Made by a program: the position numbers | Part shown: positions 15,001 to 27,000 of the stretch, piece by piece | Numbering within the stretch: the stretch's first letter is position 1 | How the letters are laid out: the number at the start of each line of letters is the position of its first letter | Assembly (NCBI GenBank): GCA_963727485.1 | Contig: CAVSGM010000001.1 | Span: forward strand, 1,088,001 to 1,152,000 | DNA from: an uncultured delta proteobacterium | Lineage (GTDB): Bacteria; Myxococcota; Myxococcia; SLRQ01 | DNA: 64,000 nt | Direction of reading: 5' to 3'

Positions 15001-18000
15001 CTGCAGCCCGCTCAGCGGTCTGAAGGCAGTGCTGCAGCCTGTCAATGGGAAAGCCACCGTAATCGCCGCTGAGGAGCTGCATATGCGCCAGGATCCGATC
15101 TGGCAGACCGGACATGAACTGCTTCTGCTCCCCGATGATTATTTGCCAATCATCTTTGGTGCTTTCGGTGAAGGATTTGAAGTTTGTTTTCATCGGTTCT
15201 CCTCATCCAGGTGTAGGAAGCACAAACGCCCTTGCAGGCGAGGCCGGTTGACGGAGCGGTCCTTGCCGGACCTGCCCAGGGCCTCCCCAAGGCCTGCATC
15301 CTATCGTAGAACAGCGGGCTGCGGCGCCTCGCCGGGTTCCAACTGGTTCAACGCCCGAAAATCCCGGCATCGCAGTCGCAGCAGTACCCTTCGGGGAAAC
15401 GAAGGCCGCCAGCCGGCGTAGGAGGTCCATCGGATCAATGCGCAGCTGACTTCGGCCATCGCGCAAGGGCTGTCGCAAGCGATGGTAGACCTCGCCCCGC
15501 GAGTCCTCCTCGAGGCGGTGCTCGGCGAAGAGAGGACGCAGGCCGTAGCGCAGCATCCAAGGTAGCGGACGCGACGGGGCAGCGAGAGCACCCACTGCCG
15601 ATAGCCGGCAACGGGCAGAACCCGATCGACGAGGTGCGCGGCGATGTCGTACATCCGGCGGCCGTTGCAGCTCGGGCAGGAGCGGCCCTCGCAGGAGACG
15701 GGTAGGAGGCGCTCGTGGCCGCAATCAGCACAGCGCAGACCGGTGAAACCGTGGGCGAGGACGCCGCAGTCGAGGAAGGCTTCGAAGGCCTCGACGACGT
15801 GGCGGGGGAGCTCGGCACGGAGCTCGCGAAAGGTCGCCAGGTGCTCGCGCACCAGGCGATGGAGGAGAGACGAGGCAACCAAGGGTCGCCGGGGGCCTCA
15901 CGGCGGGTGCCAGATCGGGTCGGGTCCTGTTTGCGGGGGCTTGCGCCGGATTTCCGGGGTCTGAGTCGTCCGGGGCGTGGACGGTCGTCCGAACGAGCCG
16001 CAGCCCAACGCCCCCGCGCGGGCGAAGCAGGGCGCTTGCCCCTCCGCCCTCCGTCGGCTACCAAGCGCCCATGCGCACCCTGGTCACCGGCGCCACCGGC
16101 TTCGTCGGCCGAGCCCTCGCCCGCCGCCTCGTCGACGACGGCCACGTAGTCCGGGCCCTGGTCCGGGAGGGCGGCGATCCCACGGTGCTCCCCGAGGGCG
16201 TCGAGCTCGTCCAGGGGGACGTCACCGATCCGGTGAGCCTCGACGCCGCGGTGCAGGGCACCGACGTGGTCTTCCACCTCGCCGGGATCCGCCGGGCGGC
16301 GACCAAGCACGACTTCTTCCAGGTGAACGCCGAGGGCACCCGCCACCTCTGCGAGGCGGTGGCGAAGATGGAGACCCCCGCACGGGTGGTCTTCGCCGGG
16401 TCCCTGGCGGCGGTGGGCCCCGCCCGCGAGGGCCGGCCGGTCCACGAGGACGACCCGTTCCGGCCCTTCGAGTGGTACGGCGAGTCCAAGGCCGAGGCCG
16501 AGCGCATCCTCGCCGGCTACACCGGGCGCATCCCCTGGACCGTGGCCCGCCCCTGCCGGATCCTCGGGCCCGGGGACCAGGAGAACCTGGTGTTCTTCAA
16601 GCTGGTGGCAAAGGGCCTGCGGCTGGTGGTCGGGGGCCCCAGGCGGCCCATCTCCATGGTGGACGTCGTCGACGTGGTCGAGGCCCTCATGGACATGGCC
16701 GAGAGCGACGCGGCCCTGGGCGAGGCGTTCTTCATCGCCGCCGAGCCGCCCCTGTCGCTCGCCGAGCTCCAGGACATCGGCGCCGAGGCCCTGGGGATTC
16801 GCCTCAAGACCTTGTACCTGCCCCAGCCGGTGCTCTGGACCCTGGCCACCGCCGCCGACGGGGTGAGCCGGGTCAGCGGGCACCGCCTGCCCCTGAACCG
16901 CAAGCTCGCCCGGCAGCTCACCGCGCCCTCCTGGGCCTGCTCCATCGAGAAGGCCGGGCGCCTCCTGGGGTGGACCCCCAAGGTCCCGATTCGCGAGTCG
17001 GTGGCCGCCGCCGCCAGGTGGTACCGCGACGCCGGCCTCGTGTGATACCCCTTGGCGACCCCGAGACCGCCCATGGCCCACCCGACCCGTGCCCACGCCG
17101 CCCACGCGGCTCCTGACGCCCCCCCGGTCGACGTCGCCTTCTTCGACGTCGACGGGACCCTGGTGCGCACCAACCTGGTGCACCTCTACGCCTACTACGC
17201 CTTCAACACCGGGTCGCTCGCCGACTCCTTCCGCCGCGCCGGGCGCCTCTTCGCCTCGATCCCCGCGTGGTGGGCGGTGGACAAGGTCAGCCGCCGGGCC
17301 TTCAACGAGGCCTTCTTCCGCTCCTACAAGGGGCTCTCCGAGGACCGCCTGGCGGTGCTCAGCGAGGAGCTCTTCGAGGAGGTCCTGGAGAAGGCGCTGA
17401 TCCCCGGGGCGGTGCGCCTGCTGAAGGCCTGCCAGCGTGCCGGCGCCCGGGTGGTGCTGGTCACCGGCGCCCTCGACTTCTCCATCGGCCCGCTCGCCCG
17501 CCACCTCGGCGTCGACGACGTCCTGGCCAACCGGATGGAGTTCGTCGCCGGCCGGGCCACCGGCCGGGTGGTGCCGCCGCTCGTCGAGGGCGCCAGCAAG
17601 GCCGAGGCCATGCGCGCCTTCTGCGAGCGCGAGGGCGTCCAGCTCTCCCGGTGCGCCGCCTACTCCGACTCCTTCTCCGACTACCCCATGCTCGCGGTGG
17701 TCGGTCACCCCACCGCGGTGAACCCCGACCTCCGGCTCCGGGCCCAGGCCAAGGGCTACCGCTGGCCGGTGGTGGACACCTCCGAGGAATCCCGATGAGC
17801 CTGTCCCTGGCCGAGCGCCTCGCCGAGGAGCGCCTCGTCGTCACCCTCGACGACGACTCGGCGCCGCGCGTCCTGTTCAACGGTGAGGACTTCCTCCTCG
17901 CCGACCTCCCCGCGGGCACCCGCGTCGTCTACCCGCGCAAGCCCCTCGAGGGCGTGGCCAACCCCACCGCGGCGATCCGCTACGCCCTCAACCACCCCCA

Positions 18001-24000: not shown

Positions 24001-27000
24001 CTGGCCCGGGGCGAGGACGAGGCCCTCACCGCGGCCGGGGCCGAGGTCCGCGCCGGCTCCATCCTCGACCCCCAGGCCGTCGCCTCCGCGGCGAAGGGCT
24101 GCGAGGCGGTGCTCCACTGCGCCGGCCTGGTCTCCCGGGACCCGGAGCACGCCGCGCGTCTCTACCAGCTCCACATCGAGGGCACCCGCACCGTGCTCAC
24201 CGCCGCGGCCGAGGCCGGGGTGGGGCGCCTGGTGCTGGCGAGCACCAGCGGCACCGTGGCCGTGTCGCGGGACCCGGAGCCCGTCCCCGACGAGACCTTC
24301 CCCGACCCCATCGAGCTCATCGGCGCCTGGCCCTACTACACCAGCAAGCTCTACCAGGAGCGCGCGGCCTTCCGCCTCGGCGCCGAGCTCGGGGTGGAGG
24401 TGGTCTCGGCGAACCCCAGCCTGCTCCTCGGCCCCGGCGACGTCCGGGTCTCCTCGGTGGGCGACGTCCTCAACTTCCTCCAGCGCGACGTGCCGGTGGT
24501 GCCCCCCGGCGGCCTCTCCTTCGTCGACGCCCGGGACGTCGCCGTGGCCATGACCACCCTCCTCGACCGGGGCGAACCGGGGCAGCGCTACCTCCTCACC
24601 GGCGCCAACCTGTCCTTCGAGCACTTCTTCGATCGCCTGGCCCACATCTCCGGGGTCGACCCGCCCCGGATGCGCCTGCCCAAGGAGGCCCTGCGACTGG
24701 GGGCCCGGGCCCTGGACCTCGCCGGCAAGGCGCTGCGCTTCACCCCCAAGGTCGACCCGGTGAGCGCCGCCATGGCCGAGGTCTTCTGGTACGCCGACGA
24801 CGCCAAGGCGCGCCGGGAGCTCGACTTCGTCTCCCGGGACCCCTACGAGACCCTCGCCGACACCGTGCTCGACCTCAAGGAGCGGGGGCTCTGGGAGCCG
24901 AGGGCCGCCTGATGCCGCCGCCGTTCACCCGACACGTCTTCATCTGCACCAACGAGCGCCCCCCGGGCCACCCCAAGGGCGACTGCCTCTCCAAGGGCGG
25001 GCCCGAGGTGGTCCAGGCCTTCAAGGCCGAGCTGGCGCAGCGCGGGCTCAAGGGCAGCATCCGGGCCCAGCGCGCCGGCTGCCTCGACAACTGCGCCCTG
25101 GGGGTGAGCGTGGTCGTCTACCCCGAGGCCGTGTGGTACGCCCACGTCACCGTCGACGACGTCGCCGAGATCGTGGAGCGGCACCTGGTGGGCGGGGAGC
25201 CGGTCGAGCGCCTGCGGATCTACCAGGGCGACGCCGGGCCGGCGCGCCAAGCCTAGGCGGTCGCCAGGAGCGCCGCGGCCACCTTCGCCACCGCCGACGC
25301 CGCCTCCAGCGCCAGCGCCGGCCGGTCACCCTCCTCGGAGAGGTAATGGAGGCGCAGCTCCACCCGGCCCGTCGCCGGCACCACCAGGAGCCGGTGGCCG
25401 CCCGTAAGCTCCAGGTCCCACACCGACGGCACCCGGGTGTGGTCCACGTGCCCGGCGGCGACCAGGGCGGCCCGGAGGTCCTCCCACGAGGACACCGGCG
25501 CCGCCAGCCTCACCCGCCAGGTGAGGTGGCGATAGCAGCCGTGGGCCATGGTGACCGCGGCCCAGTCGTTCGACAGCGCGTCGAGGGTGCCGTCGTCCCC
25601 GTCACCCGACATGGGTGACGACGACCTCGGAGTACGGGTACCCCATGGCCGTGGACCGGGTCTGCTCCACCTTCCAGGGCAGGGTGCCGCCGTGGAAGAG
25701 CGACTGGTAGAGCTCGGGGGTGAGCTGCACCGGCTTCGTCCAGTCGACCCGGTGGGCGAGCTGGGCGATGGCCAGCGCCGCCCCCTGGAAGAAGTACTCG
25801 GGAGGCCGTTTCGCGACCCCGTGGCGGGTGCGGTAGTAGACGCTCTCGTAGGTGGCCGGGGCGCGCACCACCAGCCGCTCGCCGGGGACGAACTCGTGAA
25901 GGGTCCAGTGGCCGAAGCCCAGCGCCCGGGCGATGGCCAGGGCCCCGGCGACGATGGGCCGCGGCTCCCCGGAGTGGGGCCCGACCATCCCCTCCCACTC
26001 GGGCGAGGCGAGGATGCCGCCGAAGGTGTTGAACACGCACACGTGCCCGCTCTCCCGGAGGAGGTCCTCGAAGACGCCCACCGAGCCCGGGGCCCGGCGC
26101 TCGACGTCGAGGAGGGTGTCGTAGGAGATCCGGTTGTAGTAGCCGGCGAGGTGCATGGTGACGAAGACCCCGAAGGCCTGCACCAGGCCCCGGGCGTCCC
26201 CGGCGACCCCGGCGGTGAAGTCCCGCAGACCGCCGGCGATGGTGGCGATGGTCTCCTCGTCCTCGCCGTCGAAGGTGGGCTTCACCTGGGCGGCGGCCTC
26301 GGTGCCGGTGACCACGGGTACCGCCGGGGTGGGCGAGCCCGCGGCGGCGATCTCGAAGCGGCACTGCTCGGCGCGCAGCGCCACGCAGGCGGTCTCGGTG
26401 GCGTCGAGGGTCTCCCGGGCGACGCCGTAGGCGACCTCGGTGGCGGCGGCGGCGAAGCCCGCGGCGAAGGCGTCGGCGGGGTGGCGGCGGCGGATCTTCT
26501 GCCCGTACTTCTCGTGCCAGGCGAAGCCGTAGTGGAGGAACTCGCCGATGGCGTTGCCCCCGGTGGCGTCGGCGCGCACCGAGAGGCGGCCGTGGCCCAT
26601 GGCGGCGAAGGTCTCCATGGCGCACTGCATCCGCTCCACCGGCGTCACCGCACCGGTGCGCTCGCAGAGGGCCGAGAGGAAGGTGTGGGCCGCCTCCCGG
26701 GCGGCAACGAAGCGCAGCCGGGCCCCGGCCTCGGGTCCCAGGGCGTCGTCGACGGTCTGGTCGAGGAAGAGGTTGAAGTGGTGGCAGTGGTAGACCGCGG
26801 GCACCCCGACCATGGTCATCAGGTCGTAGCCGGGGAGGTAGGCGCGGGGGGACTCGGTGGGGGTCTCGGGGGTGGTCATCGTCGCCTCGCGTCAGATGGA
26901 GAGGGTCTCGAGGCCGAGGATGTCCTTCACGGACTCCTCGAAGGCGTCGAGCTGCTCCGGGGTGAGGGCCTCGGCCTTGCGCAACGACTCCAGGGGGACG

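What a model noticed while it worked through the whole genome (the two positions that open the first line are those of the whole stretch)
16071..24912. ElbC of bacterial ether-lipid synthesis is a single-histidine nickel-pincer (NPN) enzyme
In the elbA-E ether-lipid operon, the gene in the elbC position (g00977) is a LarA-superfamily protein with the NPN-anchoring Lys, the Ni-His and the first catalytic His but Asn in place of the second; it is the only LarA homolog in a genome that has larB, larC, larE and a nickel transporter. ElbC is likely a nickel-pincer hydride-transfer enzyme acting in ether-lipid formation beside ElbD, not a hydroxy-acid racemase. This would give the 'unknown' ElbC a cofactor, make myxobacterial ether lipids nickel dependent, and put NPN chemistry into lipid synthesis for the first time.
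Evidence so far: NF052592 score 826 against a cut-off of 740; larBCE and NiCoT present. The downstream gene is FAR-ACS-ACP-acyltransferase = ElbD, split by a frameshift. Family over the cut-off in 72 of 81 Myxococcia and LarB in 78 of 81. In 30 of 30 loci it follows the elbB HAD gene, and in 23 of 30 it precedes the ElbD FAR domain within 1.5 kb. Lar_N lies near HAD in 4,257 genomes and near an acyltransferase in 3,643. Closest structures are 9q2u and 9q3j, the single-His LarA subfamily. PMC9131029 (passages) calls elbC a protein of unknown function; PMC7583248, PMC11770544, PMC12611868 and PMC13524815 (passages) do not link LarAH to lipids; the MXAN_1529 search gave 0.
(Added by a program. 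Inside this text positions count along the whole contig: contig position 1,088,001 is position 1 of the stretch shown here. "Call 12" and the like, gene names such as g00115 and contig names such as C1 are that model's own, and its searches are not shown. The text may have been shortened before it was handed on; [...] marks where a part breaks off. The agent that wrote the report below was given it as the finding of a first reader that could run no searches.)

Follow-up and report, generated by a model that had tools for sequence, protein, structure and literature searches.

The report
ElbC: nickel-pincer candidate ether synthase
The unexplained gene elbC in the bacterial ether-lipid gene cluster encodes a relative of the nickel-cofactor enzyme lactate racemase that keeps the cofactor-anchoring residues and likely makes the ether bond itself, although one bacterial lineage keeps the gene without the known genes for that cofactor.

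Summary
The elbABCDE operon is real (16071-24912), and elbC (17795-19399) is a LarA-family protein (NF052592 826 vs cut-off 740; fold closest to 9q3k). It keeps His132, Lys206 and His222 in 110 of 110 homologues. Two corrections: the second catalytic His is deleted with its loop, not replaced by Asn, and the carboxylate-binding Arg is lost. M. xanthus elbC (MXAN_1529) is already listed as LarA group 15 in the Desguin 2020 supplement; my searches found no paper tying it to ether lipids. This scan noted the link before on other DNA.

New support: ElbC and the operon's fatty-acyl reductase co-occur almost one to one (61 of 63 actinobacterial genomes). The conserved core equals the eukaryotic ether pathway minus AGPS, and 0 of 94 loci hold an AGPS-like gene. 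LarC accompanies ElbC in 91 of 91 Myxococcota and 53 of 58 Actinomycetota; larBCE adjoins the operon twice.

Against: a five-genome clade keeps an intact operon under purifying selection but lacks larB, larC and larE. No binding, activity or elbC mutant is shown. Best reading: a nickel-pincer enzyme standing in for AGPS (about 0.4).

The parts
16071..17045 (+). elbA: extended SDR (epimerase/3-beta-HSD-like), 324 aa; accessory
   Evidence: Pfam Epimerase 1e-34; found in only 8 of 80 related loci; elbA insertions had no effect in M. xanthus (PMC9131029 passages)
17052..17798 (+). elbB: HAD-IB phosphatase (start codon uncertain; ORF finder gives TTG 17052)
   Evidence: TIGR01490 133 bits vs cut-off 98; HAD in 72 of 80 related loci
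17795..19399 (+). elbC: LarA-superfamily protein, 534 aa, Desguin group 15 / NF052592; candidate nickel-pincer ether synthase
   Evidence: NF052592 826 vs 740; AlphaFold model pLDDT 91; Foldseek 9q3k TM 0.77, E 1e-34
18059..18064 (+). Asp89-Asp90 (ribose-binding Asp72/Asp73 region); the basic residue that follows in LarA is replaced by Leu
   Evidence: D89 and D90 in 109 of 110 (1 gap); position 93 Leu 89, Val 9, Ile 7, Met 4
18188..18190 (+). His132, equivalent of catalytic His108 (LarA) / His115 (LarASp)
   Evidence: 110 of 110; profile alignment
18410..18412 (+). Lys206, equivalent of the thioamide-forming Lys184 / Lys195
   Evidence: 110 of 110
18458..18460 (+). His222, equivalent of the nickel ligand His200 / His211 (Lys+16)
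   Evidence: 110 of 110; invariant in the 30-sequence diverse alignment
18884..18886 (+). Tyr364, equivalent of LarASp active-site Tyr307
   Evidence: 110 of 110, 25 of 25 catalytic representatives; mapping
19178..19180 (+). His462, equivalent of LarASp active-site His401; a possible second acid/base
   Evidence: 110 of 110, 25 of 25; mapping
19396..21171 (+). elbD 5' part: fatty-acyl reductase (FAR) domain
   Evidence: Pfam NAD_binding_4 7e-47 and Sterile 5e-8; the only FAR of this type in the genome
21170..23911 (+). elbD 3' part: acyl-CoA synthetase, ACP and PlsC-type acyltransferase, one base out of frame with the FAR part (likely an assembly error)
   Evidence: Pfam AMP-binding, PP-binding, Acyltransferase; one contig of run X2 (depth 3.9, 30 nt on the short side) has one base fewer at 21171; larC and larE of this assembly are also frameshifted
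23908..24912 (+). elbE: extended SDR; replaced by a Zn-dependent dehydrogenase in other lineages
   Evidence: Pfam Epimerase 3e-31; 39 of 80 loci; 11 loci carry a Zn-ADH and none of these an ElbE

Best explanation
ElbC is a lactate-racemase-family protein of the elb lipid operon that likely carries the nickel-pincer (NPN) cofactor and likely forms the ether bond, standing in for the FAD enzyme AGPS. Shown: family, fold, conserved Lys206/His222/His132, loss of the His174 loop and of the carboxylate-binding Arg, and tight linkage to FAR, acyltransferase, HAD and an NAD(P) oxidoreductase. Inferred pathway: ElbD's reductase (with ElbE or the Zn-ADH) supplies a fatty alcohol, the acyltransferase makes an acylated glycerol-phosphate, and ElbB removes the phosphate. 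Inferred chemistry: His132 deprotonates a glycerol hydroxyl while NPN C4 takes the hydride; the transient carbonyl allows elimination of the acyl group; the fatty alcohol adds to the resulting enal (Tyr364 and His462 as candidate acid/base); the hydride returns. Return to the same face needs one base, which would explain why the second His is gone, and a substrate without a free carboxylate would explain the lost Arg. A lipid kinase, often adjacent, would re-phosphorylate the alkylglycerol. My odds: acts in the elb pathway 0.85, binds NPN 0.75, forms the ether bond 0.5, this exact chemistry 0.3.
For: Residues and fold. Holo LarASp, the nearest structure, carries NPN on the equivalent Lys and His (PMC12611868). 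Linkage: in 251 Actinomycetota genomes all 58 with ElbC over the cut-off have the operon's FAR, and 61 of 63 FAR-positive genomes have ElbC. The core recurs in Myxococcota, Acidobacteriota, Chloroflexota, Actinomycetota, Gemmataceae and Gemmatimonadales loci. The oxidoreductase is exchangeable (SDR or Zn-ADH, never both). Missing-enzyme argument: 0 of 94 loci hold an FAD-oxidase/AGPS-like gene, and 43 of 55 ElbC-positive actinobacterial genomes have no AGPS-like match with the query used. In M. xanthus, AGPS disruption cut ether lipids only slightly while elbD loss cut them strongly (PMC9131029 passages). Cofactor supply: LarC in 91 of 91 ElbC-positive Myxococcota and in 53 of 58 Actinomycetota against 72 of 140 without any LarA, the same rate as for other LarA proteins, 39 of 42. 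larB, larC and larE lie next to the operon in L048 and L125.
Against: Five related actinobacterial genomes (G211, G269, G309, G368, G401) have ElbC as their only LarA and a complete operon, but no larC, larB or larE (0 of 5 each). Their ElbCs form one clade with dN/dS 0.07-0.36, and larBC is missing from its syntenic site with no gap in the assemblies. G163 also lacks all three (completeness unknown). LarC is common without any LarA (51%), and non-LarA NPN clients exist (PMC13524815). The Arg that binds the cofactor phosphate in LarA is lost. A sister subfamily with the same active-site residues sits beside CoA-transferase III genes, not lipid genes. Sponge elb-like clusters GCF 5-10 hold only elbD and elbB homologues (preprint), and G317 has FAR-HAD with no ElbC nearby. 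An aldehyde, but no fatty alcohol, was detected in M. xanthus. This genome has an AGPS-like gene elsewhere. Frankia LarAH14 showed no activity on the hydroxy acids tested and was not tested on lipids. No elbC mutant is described in the review passages read.
Confidence: 0.4

Rival explanations
1. ElbC binds NPN and works in the elb pathway, but on a side step (inverting a glycerol or hydroxy-acyl stereocentre, or shuttling hydride between lipid intermediates as NphT does for sugars); another Elb protein makes the ether bond.
For: All characterised LarA enzymes are isomerases. His462 and Tyr364 could replace His174. The sister subfamily in a CoA-transferase context suggests thioester substrates. 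Intermolecular hydride transfer by an NPN enzyme is known.
Against: A side step would be expected to be patchy, as elbA is (8 of 80 loci), yet ElbC tracks FAR in 61 of 63 genomes. No other core gene is of a family known to form ethers.
Confidence: 0.25
2. ElbC is needed for ether formation but works without the nickel-pincer cofactor (another pyridine nucleotide, or none); larBCE serves other enzymes.
For: The five-genome clade without larBCE keeps elbC under purifying selection. LarC is present in 51% of LarA-free actinobacterial genomes. G109, of the window's own family, has larBC but no LarA. The phosphate-binding Arg is lost.
Against: Lys206 and His222 are invariant in 110 of 110, also in that clade. 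LarC is enriched to the level seen for other LarA proteins. Two loci carry larBCE beside the operon. Uptake of cofactor could explain the clade, since apo-LarAHs accept added NPN in vitro; such uptake is not shown.
Confidence: 0.2
3. The ether bond is made by ElbD/ElbE through a reductive aldehyde route, or by an AGPS encoded elsewhere, and ElbC is dispensable for ether lipids.
For: Only elbD and elbE mutants are tied to the phenotype, and an i15:0 aldehyde depends on elbD. elbD-elbB clusters without elbC exist. An AGPS-like gene is present in this genome.
Against: 43 of 55 ElbC-positive actinobacteria lack an AGPS-like match. Many loci keep ElbC while lacking ACS, ACP and ElbE. The clusters without elbC have no lipid product shown.
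Confidence: 0.1
4. ElbC is an ordinary NPN 2-hydroxy-acid racemase or epimerase, as the NCBIfam name implies, and its place in the operon is incidental.
For: The NCBIfam label 'NPN-dependent hydroxyacid isomerase'.
Against: His174 loop deleted, Arg75 hydrophobic, Lys298 replaced by Asn. LarAH14 was inactive in all seven assays. The lipid context is conserved across phyla.
Confidence: 0.05

Closest known systems
Myxococcus xanthus elbABCDE operon (MXAN_1531-1527; Lorenzen et al. 2014, seen only through passages of PMC9131029 and PMC13012113)
   Same: Same five genes in the same order with the same domain content; elbC corresponds to MXAN_1529.
   Different: elbD is frameshifted here (likely assembly error). 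The review calls elbC 'unknown function' and names no cofactor.
LarA homolog groups 14 and 15 of Desguin et al. 2020 (PMC7583248, Dataset S2, Table S1); NCBIfam NF052592
   Same: Member: 826 vs 740 bits. Same pattern D, hydrophobic, H, gap, K, H. Their table already gives HAD, acyl-CoA synthetase, acyltransferase and epimerase neighbours.
   Different: That paper gives 'unknown function', does not use the word lipid in its main text and did not recognise the elb operon in the parts I read.
Single-His LarA subfamily LarASp / LarABw (group 17; PDB 9q2u, 9q3k, 9q3j; PMC12611868)
   Same: Closest fold (TM 0.77). Shares His115, Lys195, His211, Tyr307, His401 equivalents and the C-terminal domain type.
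   Different: Has Asn185 on a full-length loop and Lys76; ElbC has a 4-residue deletion, a hydrophobic residue and a 49-residue insert. About 21% identity; sugar/triose gene context rather than lipid.
Alkyl-DHAP synthase (AGPS) pathway of eukaryotes and MXAN_1676-1674
   Same: Same set of partner activities (FAR, PlsC-type acyltransferase, carbonyl reductase). ElbC occupies the one unfilled slot.
   Different: AGPS is an FAD enzyme of an unrelated family; none is found in 94 elb loci. Equivalence of function is inferred, not shown.
Lactate racemase LarA (L. plantarum; 5huq)
   Same: Fold (TM 0.59), Asp72, His108, Lys184, His200 equivalents.
   Different: His174 loop deleted, Arg75 and Lys298 lost; far below NF033504 cut-off (52 vs 460).

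Membership tests
LarA superfamily, NF052592 (LarAH14/15/16) | Score above the curated cut-off | tested here: met
   826 vs 740
LarA superfamily | Two-domain LarA fold | tested here: met
   All 19 Foldseek matches at E <= 0.001 counted; those listed are LarA-family structures, best 9q3k TM 0.77
NPN-dependent enzymes | Thioamide Lys and nickel His at Lys+16 | tested here: met
   Lys206 and His222 in 110 of 110; mapping
NPN-dependent enzymes | Basic residue for the cofactor phosphate (Arg75 / Lys76) | tested here: not met
   Leu/Val/Ile/Met in 109 of 110; another Arg (104 or 133, both conserved) might substitute, not tested
NPN-dependent enzymes | Host genome encodes LarB, LarC and LarE | tested here: inconclusive
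   Present in this genome (larC and larE frameshifted in the assembly); LarC in 91 of 91 and 53 of 58; all three absent in a five-genome clade
NPN-dependent enzymes | Bound nickel and NPN shown biochemically | not testable with these tools
   No data for any group 14/15 protein in the parts of papers read
2-hydroxy-acid racemases/epimerases (LarA proper) | Two catalytic His (108 and 174) and carboxylate-binding Arg75 / Lys298 | tested here: not met
   His174 loop deleted; Arg75 lost; Lys298 to Asn in group 15 per Dataset S2
Single-His Asn subfamily (group 17, LarASp) | Invariant Asn at the His174 position | tested here: not met
   17 vs 21 residues from Asp to Lys; Asn197 only 13 of 25 in diverse catalytic members; no residue-level superposition available
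elb ether-lipid operon | elbA-E gene set and ElbD domain order FAR-ACS-ACP-AT | tested here: met
   figure legends
elb ether-lipid operon | Organism makes alkyl ether lipids through these genes | not testable with these tools
   No lipid data for this genome; shown only for M. xanthus in the review passages read
AGPS (alkyl-DHAP synthase) | FAD-linked oxidase fold | tested here: not met
   ElbC has only Lar_N; it could at most work like AGPS

The most novel reading that the evidence does not exclude
ElbC is the ether-bond-forming enzyme of the elb pathway: a nickel-pincer-dependent, AGPS-independent alkylglycerol synthase that swaps an acyl chain for a fatty alcohol by hidden redox chemistry. 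It would be the first nickel enzyme in lipid synthesis and a third route to bacterial ether lipids beside AGPS and PlsAR/Ger, spread over at least six phyla, with relatives in green algae and with one lineage that must take up the cofactor.
Probability: 0.38. Interest if true: 0.9.

Novelty: new variant of a known kind. Interest (0 to 1): 0.66.

Why it matters
The step that makes the ether bond in the elb pathway has been unknown since the operon was described, and elbD is used as a marker for ether-lipid producers in environmental work. Naming ElbC and a cofactor makes the question testable with three knock-outs in M. xanthus (elbC, larC, a Lys mutant) and one co-expression experiment. If true, NPN chemistry extends from small hydroxy acids to lipids, and elbC becomes a better single marker than the multidomain elbD. 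The actinobacterial FAR-HAD/Zn-ADH/ElbC/acyltransferase operon then predicts ether lipids in many unexamined lineages. The larBCE-free clade is itself a test case for cofactor uptake or cofactor-free catalysis.

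Tried and rejected
Asn-for-His mapping: rejected after sequence counts and an alignment with eight canonical LarA proteins.

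Assembly gap as the cause of missing larBC in five genomes: rejected by synteny. Decay of elbC after larBCE loss: rejected by dN/dS similar to LarC-positive pairs (simple Nei-Gojobori, high GC). Of eight further ElbC-positive, LarC-negative genomes, seven have larB or larE, so these look like incomplete assemblies.

The 49-residue basic insert as a lipid-specific membrane anchor: not supported, because the non-lipid sister subfamily has most of it. No RNA holder was listed for the operon. The most diverse alignment was too divergent for the locus search. No complex prediction was run.

Literature: 'elbC + ether lipid' gave one review; 'lactate racemase + ether lipid' 0; 'MXAN_1529' 0; 'DUF2088 + lipid' 0; nickel/pincer/ether lipid/Myxococcus gave 7 listings, none on this topic by title and abstract start. 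These searches do not cover supplements, where MXAN_1529 does appear. Lorenzen 2014 and the 2023 Rubrobacterales paper are not held; either may comment on elbC.

Full report
Observation. The window is G000:C1:1088001-1152000. Five genes lie on the + strand from 16071 to 24912: an SDR, a HAD-IB phosphatase, a LarA-like protein, a FAR|ACS-ACP-acyltransferase gene and a second SDR. The last four overlap by four bases. This is the layout of M. xanthus elbABCDE, MXAN_1531 to 1527 (figure legends), so elbC is MXAN_1529. elbD is one base out of frame near 21171. One 99%-alike contig of run X2 has one base fewer there (depth 3.9, 30 nt on the short side, so weak), and larC and larE of this assembly are frameshifted too. 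An assembly error is likely.

The protein. ElbC (534 aa) scores 826 on NF052592, cut-off 740, and is the only Lar_N match in the genome. The model has pLDDT 91 and matches 9q3k at TM 0.77 and LarA 5huq at 0.59. By profile alignment to LarASp and the numbering in PMC12611868 (parts 1-3 of 5 read), His115, Lys195, His211, Tyr307 and His401 map to His132, Lys206, His222, Tyr364 and His462. Each is present in 110 of 110 homologues from 80 database loci and 30 actinobacterial loci. The Asp-to-Lys stretch is 17 residues in all 111 sequences against 21 in LarASp, and in an alignment with eight canonical LarA proteins the His174 column is a gap. One HMMER alignment (Mar2) did place Asn197 opposite that His, but Asn197 is kept in only 13 of 25 diverse catalytic members. 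Second, the Arg75/Lys76 position is hydrophobic. The protein has therefore lost the racemase's second base and its carboxylate grip.

What is in print. Desguin 2020 (PMC7583248; parts 1 and 3 of 6, passages, supplement 2 whole, parts of Dataset S2) lists MXAN_1529 in group 15 with a gap at His174 and Asn at Lys298. Its Table S1 gives HAD (100%), acyl-CoA synthetase (75%) and epimerase neighbours for group 15, and acyltransferase, HAD and thioester-reductase neighbours for group 14. The function is given as unknown; Frankia LarAH14 was inactive in all seven assays. The authors note such proteins may catalyse another hydride-mediated reaction. The review PMC9131029 (passages) calls elbC unknown, describes mutants of elbA, B, D and E only, and reports an aldehyde but no fatty alcohol. 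LarAH15 of PMC11770544 (passages and supplement search) is a Phytophthora enzyme on the GntE branch, so probably not group 15. PMC13524815 (part 1 of 10 and passages) shows NPN clients outside LarA. I also read passages of PMC13012113, PMC10087280, PMC11150832 and PMC11980068 and passages plus section 14 of bioRxiv 2026.06.23.733905 (its supplements are closed and may list the genes of each cluster). Five searches for the link found none. Lorenzen 2014 and the Rubrobacterales paper were not available; of the latter I saw only the title, which reports ether lipids in an order whose member R. xylanophilus is in group 14.

Context. The locus search kept the best 80 of 594 confirmed relatives from a part-scanned collection. 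They come from Myxococcota, Acidobacteriota (many Pyrinomonadaceae), Chloroflexota, Actinomycetota, Gemmataceae and Gemmatimonadales. HAD occurs in 72, FAR in 61, the PlsC-type acyltransferase in 49, ACS in 48, ElbE in 39 and ElbA in 8 of 80; many loci end at contig edges, and among 42 loci of 15 kb or more the counts are HAD 39, FAR 34, acyltransferase 33. Eleven loci carry a Zn-dependent dehydrogenase close upstream of elbC and none of them an ElbE. A diacylglycerol-kinase-like gene occurs in 14. Fourteen actinobacterial loci that I chose from 58 (five LarC-negative, nine on long contigs) all read FAR-HAD fusion, Zn-ADH, ElbC, with a PlsC-type acyltransferase in 11 and PlsY in 3. In 251 Actinomycetota genomes, all 58 with ElbC over the cut-off have this FAR, and 61 of 63 FAR-positive genomes have ElbC or a fragment of it. 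The exceptions are G293, whose operon runs off a contig, and G317, with FAR-HAD alone.

The missing enzyme. The eukaryotic ether pathway uses FAR, an acyltransferase and AGPS, followed by a carbonyl reductase and a phosphatase (own knowledge). The elb core has all of these but AGPS, plus ElbC. No FAD-oxidase gene was found in 94 loci with three queries from this genome. An AGPS-like query matched 12 of 55 published ElbC-positive actinobacterial genomes at E <= 1e-35. In M. xanthus the elb route dominates over the AGPS gene. This is an argument by elimination and not a demonstration. Against it, some sponge clusters have only elbD and elbB, and this genome has its own AGPS-like gene elsewhere.

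Cofactor supply. The genome has larB and larC side by side, larE and NicO. In 151 Myxococcota genomes ElbC is in 91 (89 over the cut-off), all in families where every member has LarC; 12 of 39 genomes without any LarA also have LarC. In Actinomycetota, LarC is in 53 of 58 ElbC genomes, 39 of 42 with other LarA only, and 72 of 140 with none (Fisher p 4e-8, overstated because kin are not independent). Where ElbC is the only LarA, LarC is in 27 of 32. LarC was found in 40 of the 47 genomes (of 80 loci) that I picked as not clearly myxobacterial; seven of eight further LarC-negative genomes have larB or larE. larB, larC and larE adjoin the operon in 1 of 80 database loci (L048) and 1 of 14 actinobacterial loci (L125).

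The exception. G211, G269, G309, G368 and G401 lack larC, larB and larE. Their ElbCs form one clade at 79-97% identity with every key residue intact, and their operons are complete. dN/dS is 0.07-0.36 against 0.006-0.21 in LarC-positive pairs. In the sister genome G226 larBC lies between an ABC permease and a gene before serS; in all five these flanks are adjacent, with no Ns. So either these bacteria take up the cofactor, or ElbC can work without it. 'Ether lipids are nickel dependent' cannot be stated generally.

Wider family. Of 64 full-length representatives, 25 keep His132 and Lys206 and 39 do not; two degenerate ones tested nest inside the ElbC clades. A sister subfamily with the same active site lies beside a CoA-transferase III in five of seven loci, which fits a substrate without a free carboxylate but shows the site is not lipid-specific. 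Two further members, one from the green alga Cymbomonas, branch as sister to ElbC.

Mechanism and verdict. I commit to ElbC as an NPN enzyme that exchanges an acyl chain for a fatty alcohol by oxidation, elimination, addition and re-reduction, chemistry known from NAD-dependent SAH hydrolase and family 4 glycosidases (own knowledge). Every chemical step is inferred. The family and the operon are known; their union, and the AGPS-replacement reading, were not found in print, though this scan's earlier notes reached the same link on other genomes (unchecked AI notes, read after my reading was formed). The additions here are the co-occurrence tests, the corrected residue map and the larBCE-free clade.

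Unpublished genomes. G198, G215, G245, G283, G313, G337, G361, G405 and G416 are flagged unpublished. They enter the 251-genome counts (without them LarC is 50 of 55 against 68 of 136). G283, G337 and G405 also enter the FAR counts, the 110-sequence residue counts and one dN/dS pair. No conclusion depends on them.

Noticed in passing
PDB 9q2u / PMC12611868: The unidentified 316.5 Da adduct on holo LarASp equals the mass of 1-O-hexadecylglycerol (316.53) and of mono-C15:0-glycerol (316.48). Probably coincidence, since the host was L. lactis, but a glycerolipid was not considered in the parts read.
   Followed up: partly
G211, G269, G309, G368, G401 (L118-L122, L150-L154): A clade that lacks larB, larC and larE but keeps a LarA-family gene under purifying selection: candidate NPN auxotrophs or a cofactor-free variant.
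   Followed up: yes
P0174, P0158, P0171: ElbC-like proteins with all anchor residues except that the nickel His sits in an 'HNH/YNH' motif; P0174 is from the green alga Cymbomonas, the other two resemble it and are unnamed. P0171 is read through into a chlorophyll-binding-like sequence.
   Followed up: partly
L134-L140: Sister subfamily (about 510 aa) beside CoA-transferase III, an AMP-binding ligase and a HEAT-repeat protein: a second unexplained NPN-type context.
   Followed up: partly
P0130, P0148 and 37 more representatives: Many degenerate ElbC paralogues lack His132 or Lys206 (Desguin group 16 type) yet mostly keep C-terminal His459/His462; possible pseudo-enzyme partners.
   Followed up: partly
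L023, L035, L087: Bryobacterales variant: HAD, ElbC and SDR with no FAR hit within the locus; L023 also has an ACP-fatty acyl-AMP ligase protein with an unassigned C-terminal part, PlsY and a DAG kinase.
   Followed up: partly
G000:C11:489000-495000: larE lies at the end of a run of genes that look, by their sequence starts, like cysteine synthases, a MoeB-like protein, a JAB-type protein and an adenylyl-sulfate kinase (labels recalled, not scanned): a possible sulfur relay for LarE.
   Followed up: no
G000:C2:721228-726849: An AGPS-like FAD enzyme (best structures 2uuu, 4bby) near a DAG-kinase-like gene, with no FAR beside it.
   Followed up: partly
G109 (L141): The only other sampled genome of the window's family has larB and larC but no LarA homologue, so another NPN client or a recent loss of elbC.
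   Followed up: partly
window:14615-15882: A lower-GC patch (about 64%) upstream of elbA with an HD-domain-like gene and a fragment resembling an IS91-type transposase (labels recalled, not scanned).
   Followed up: no
window:25510-30056: Downstream minus-strand cluster with a ParA-like ATPase, roadblock-like proteins and a heme-NO-binding/V4R-like protein (labels recalled, not scanned).
   Followed up: no
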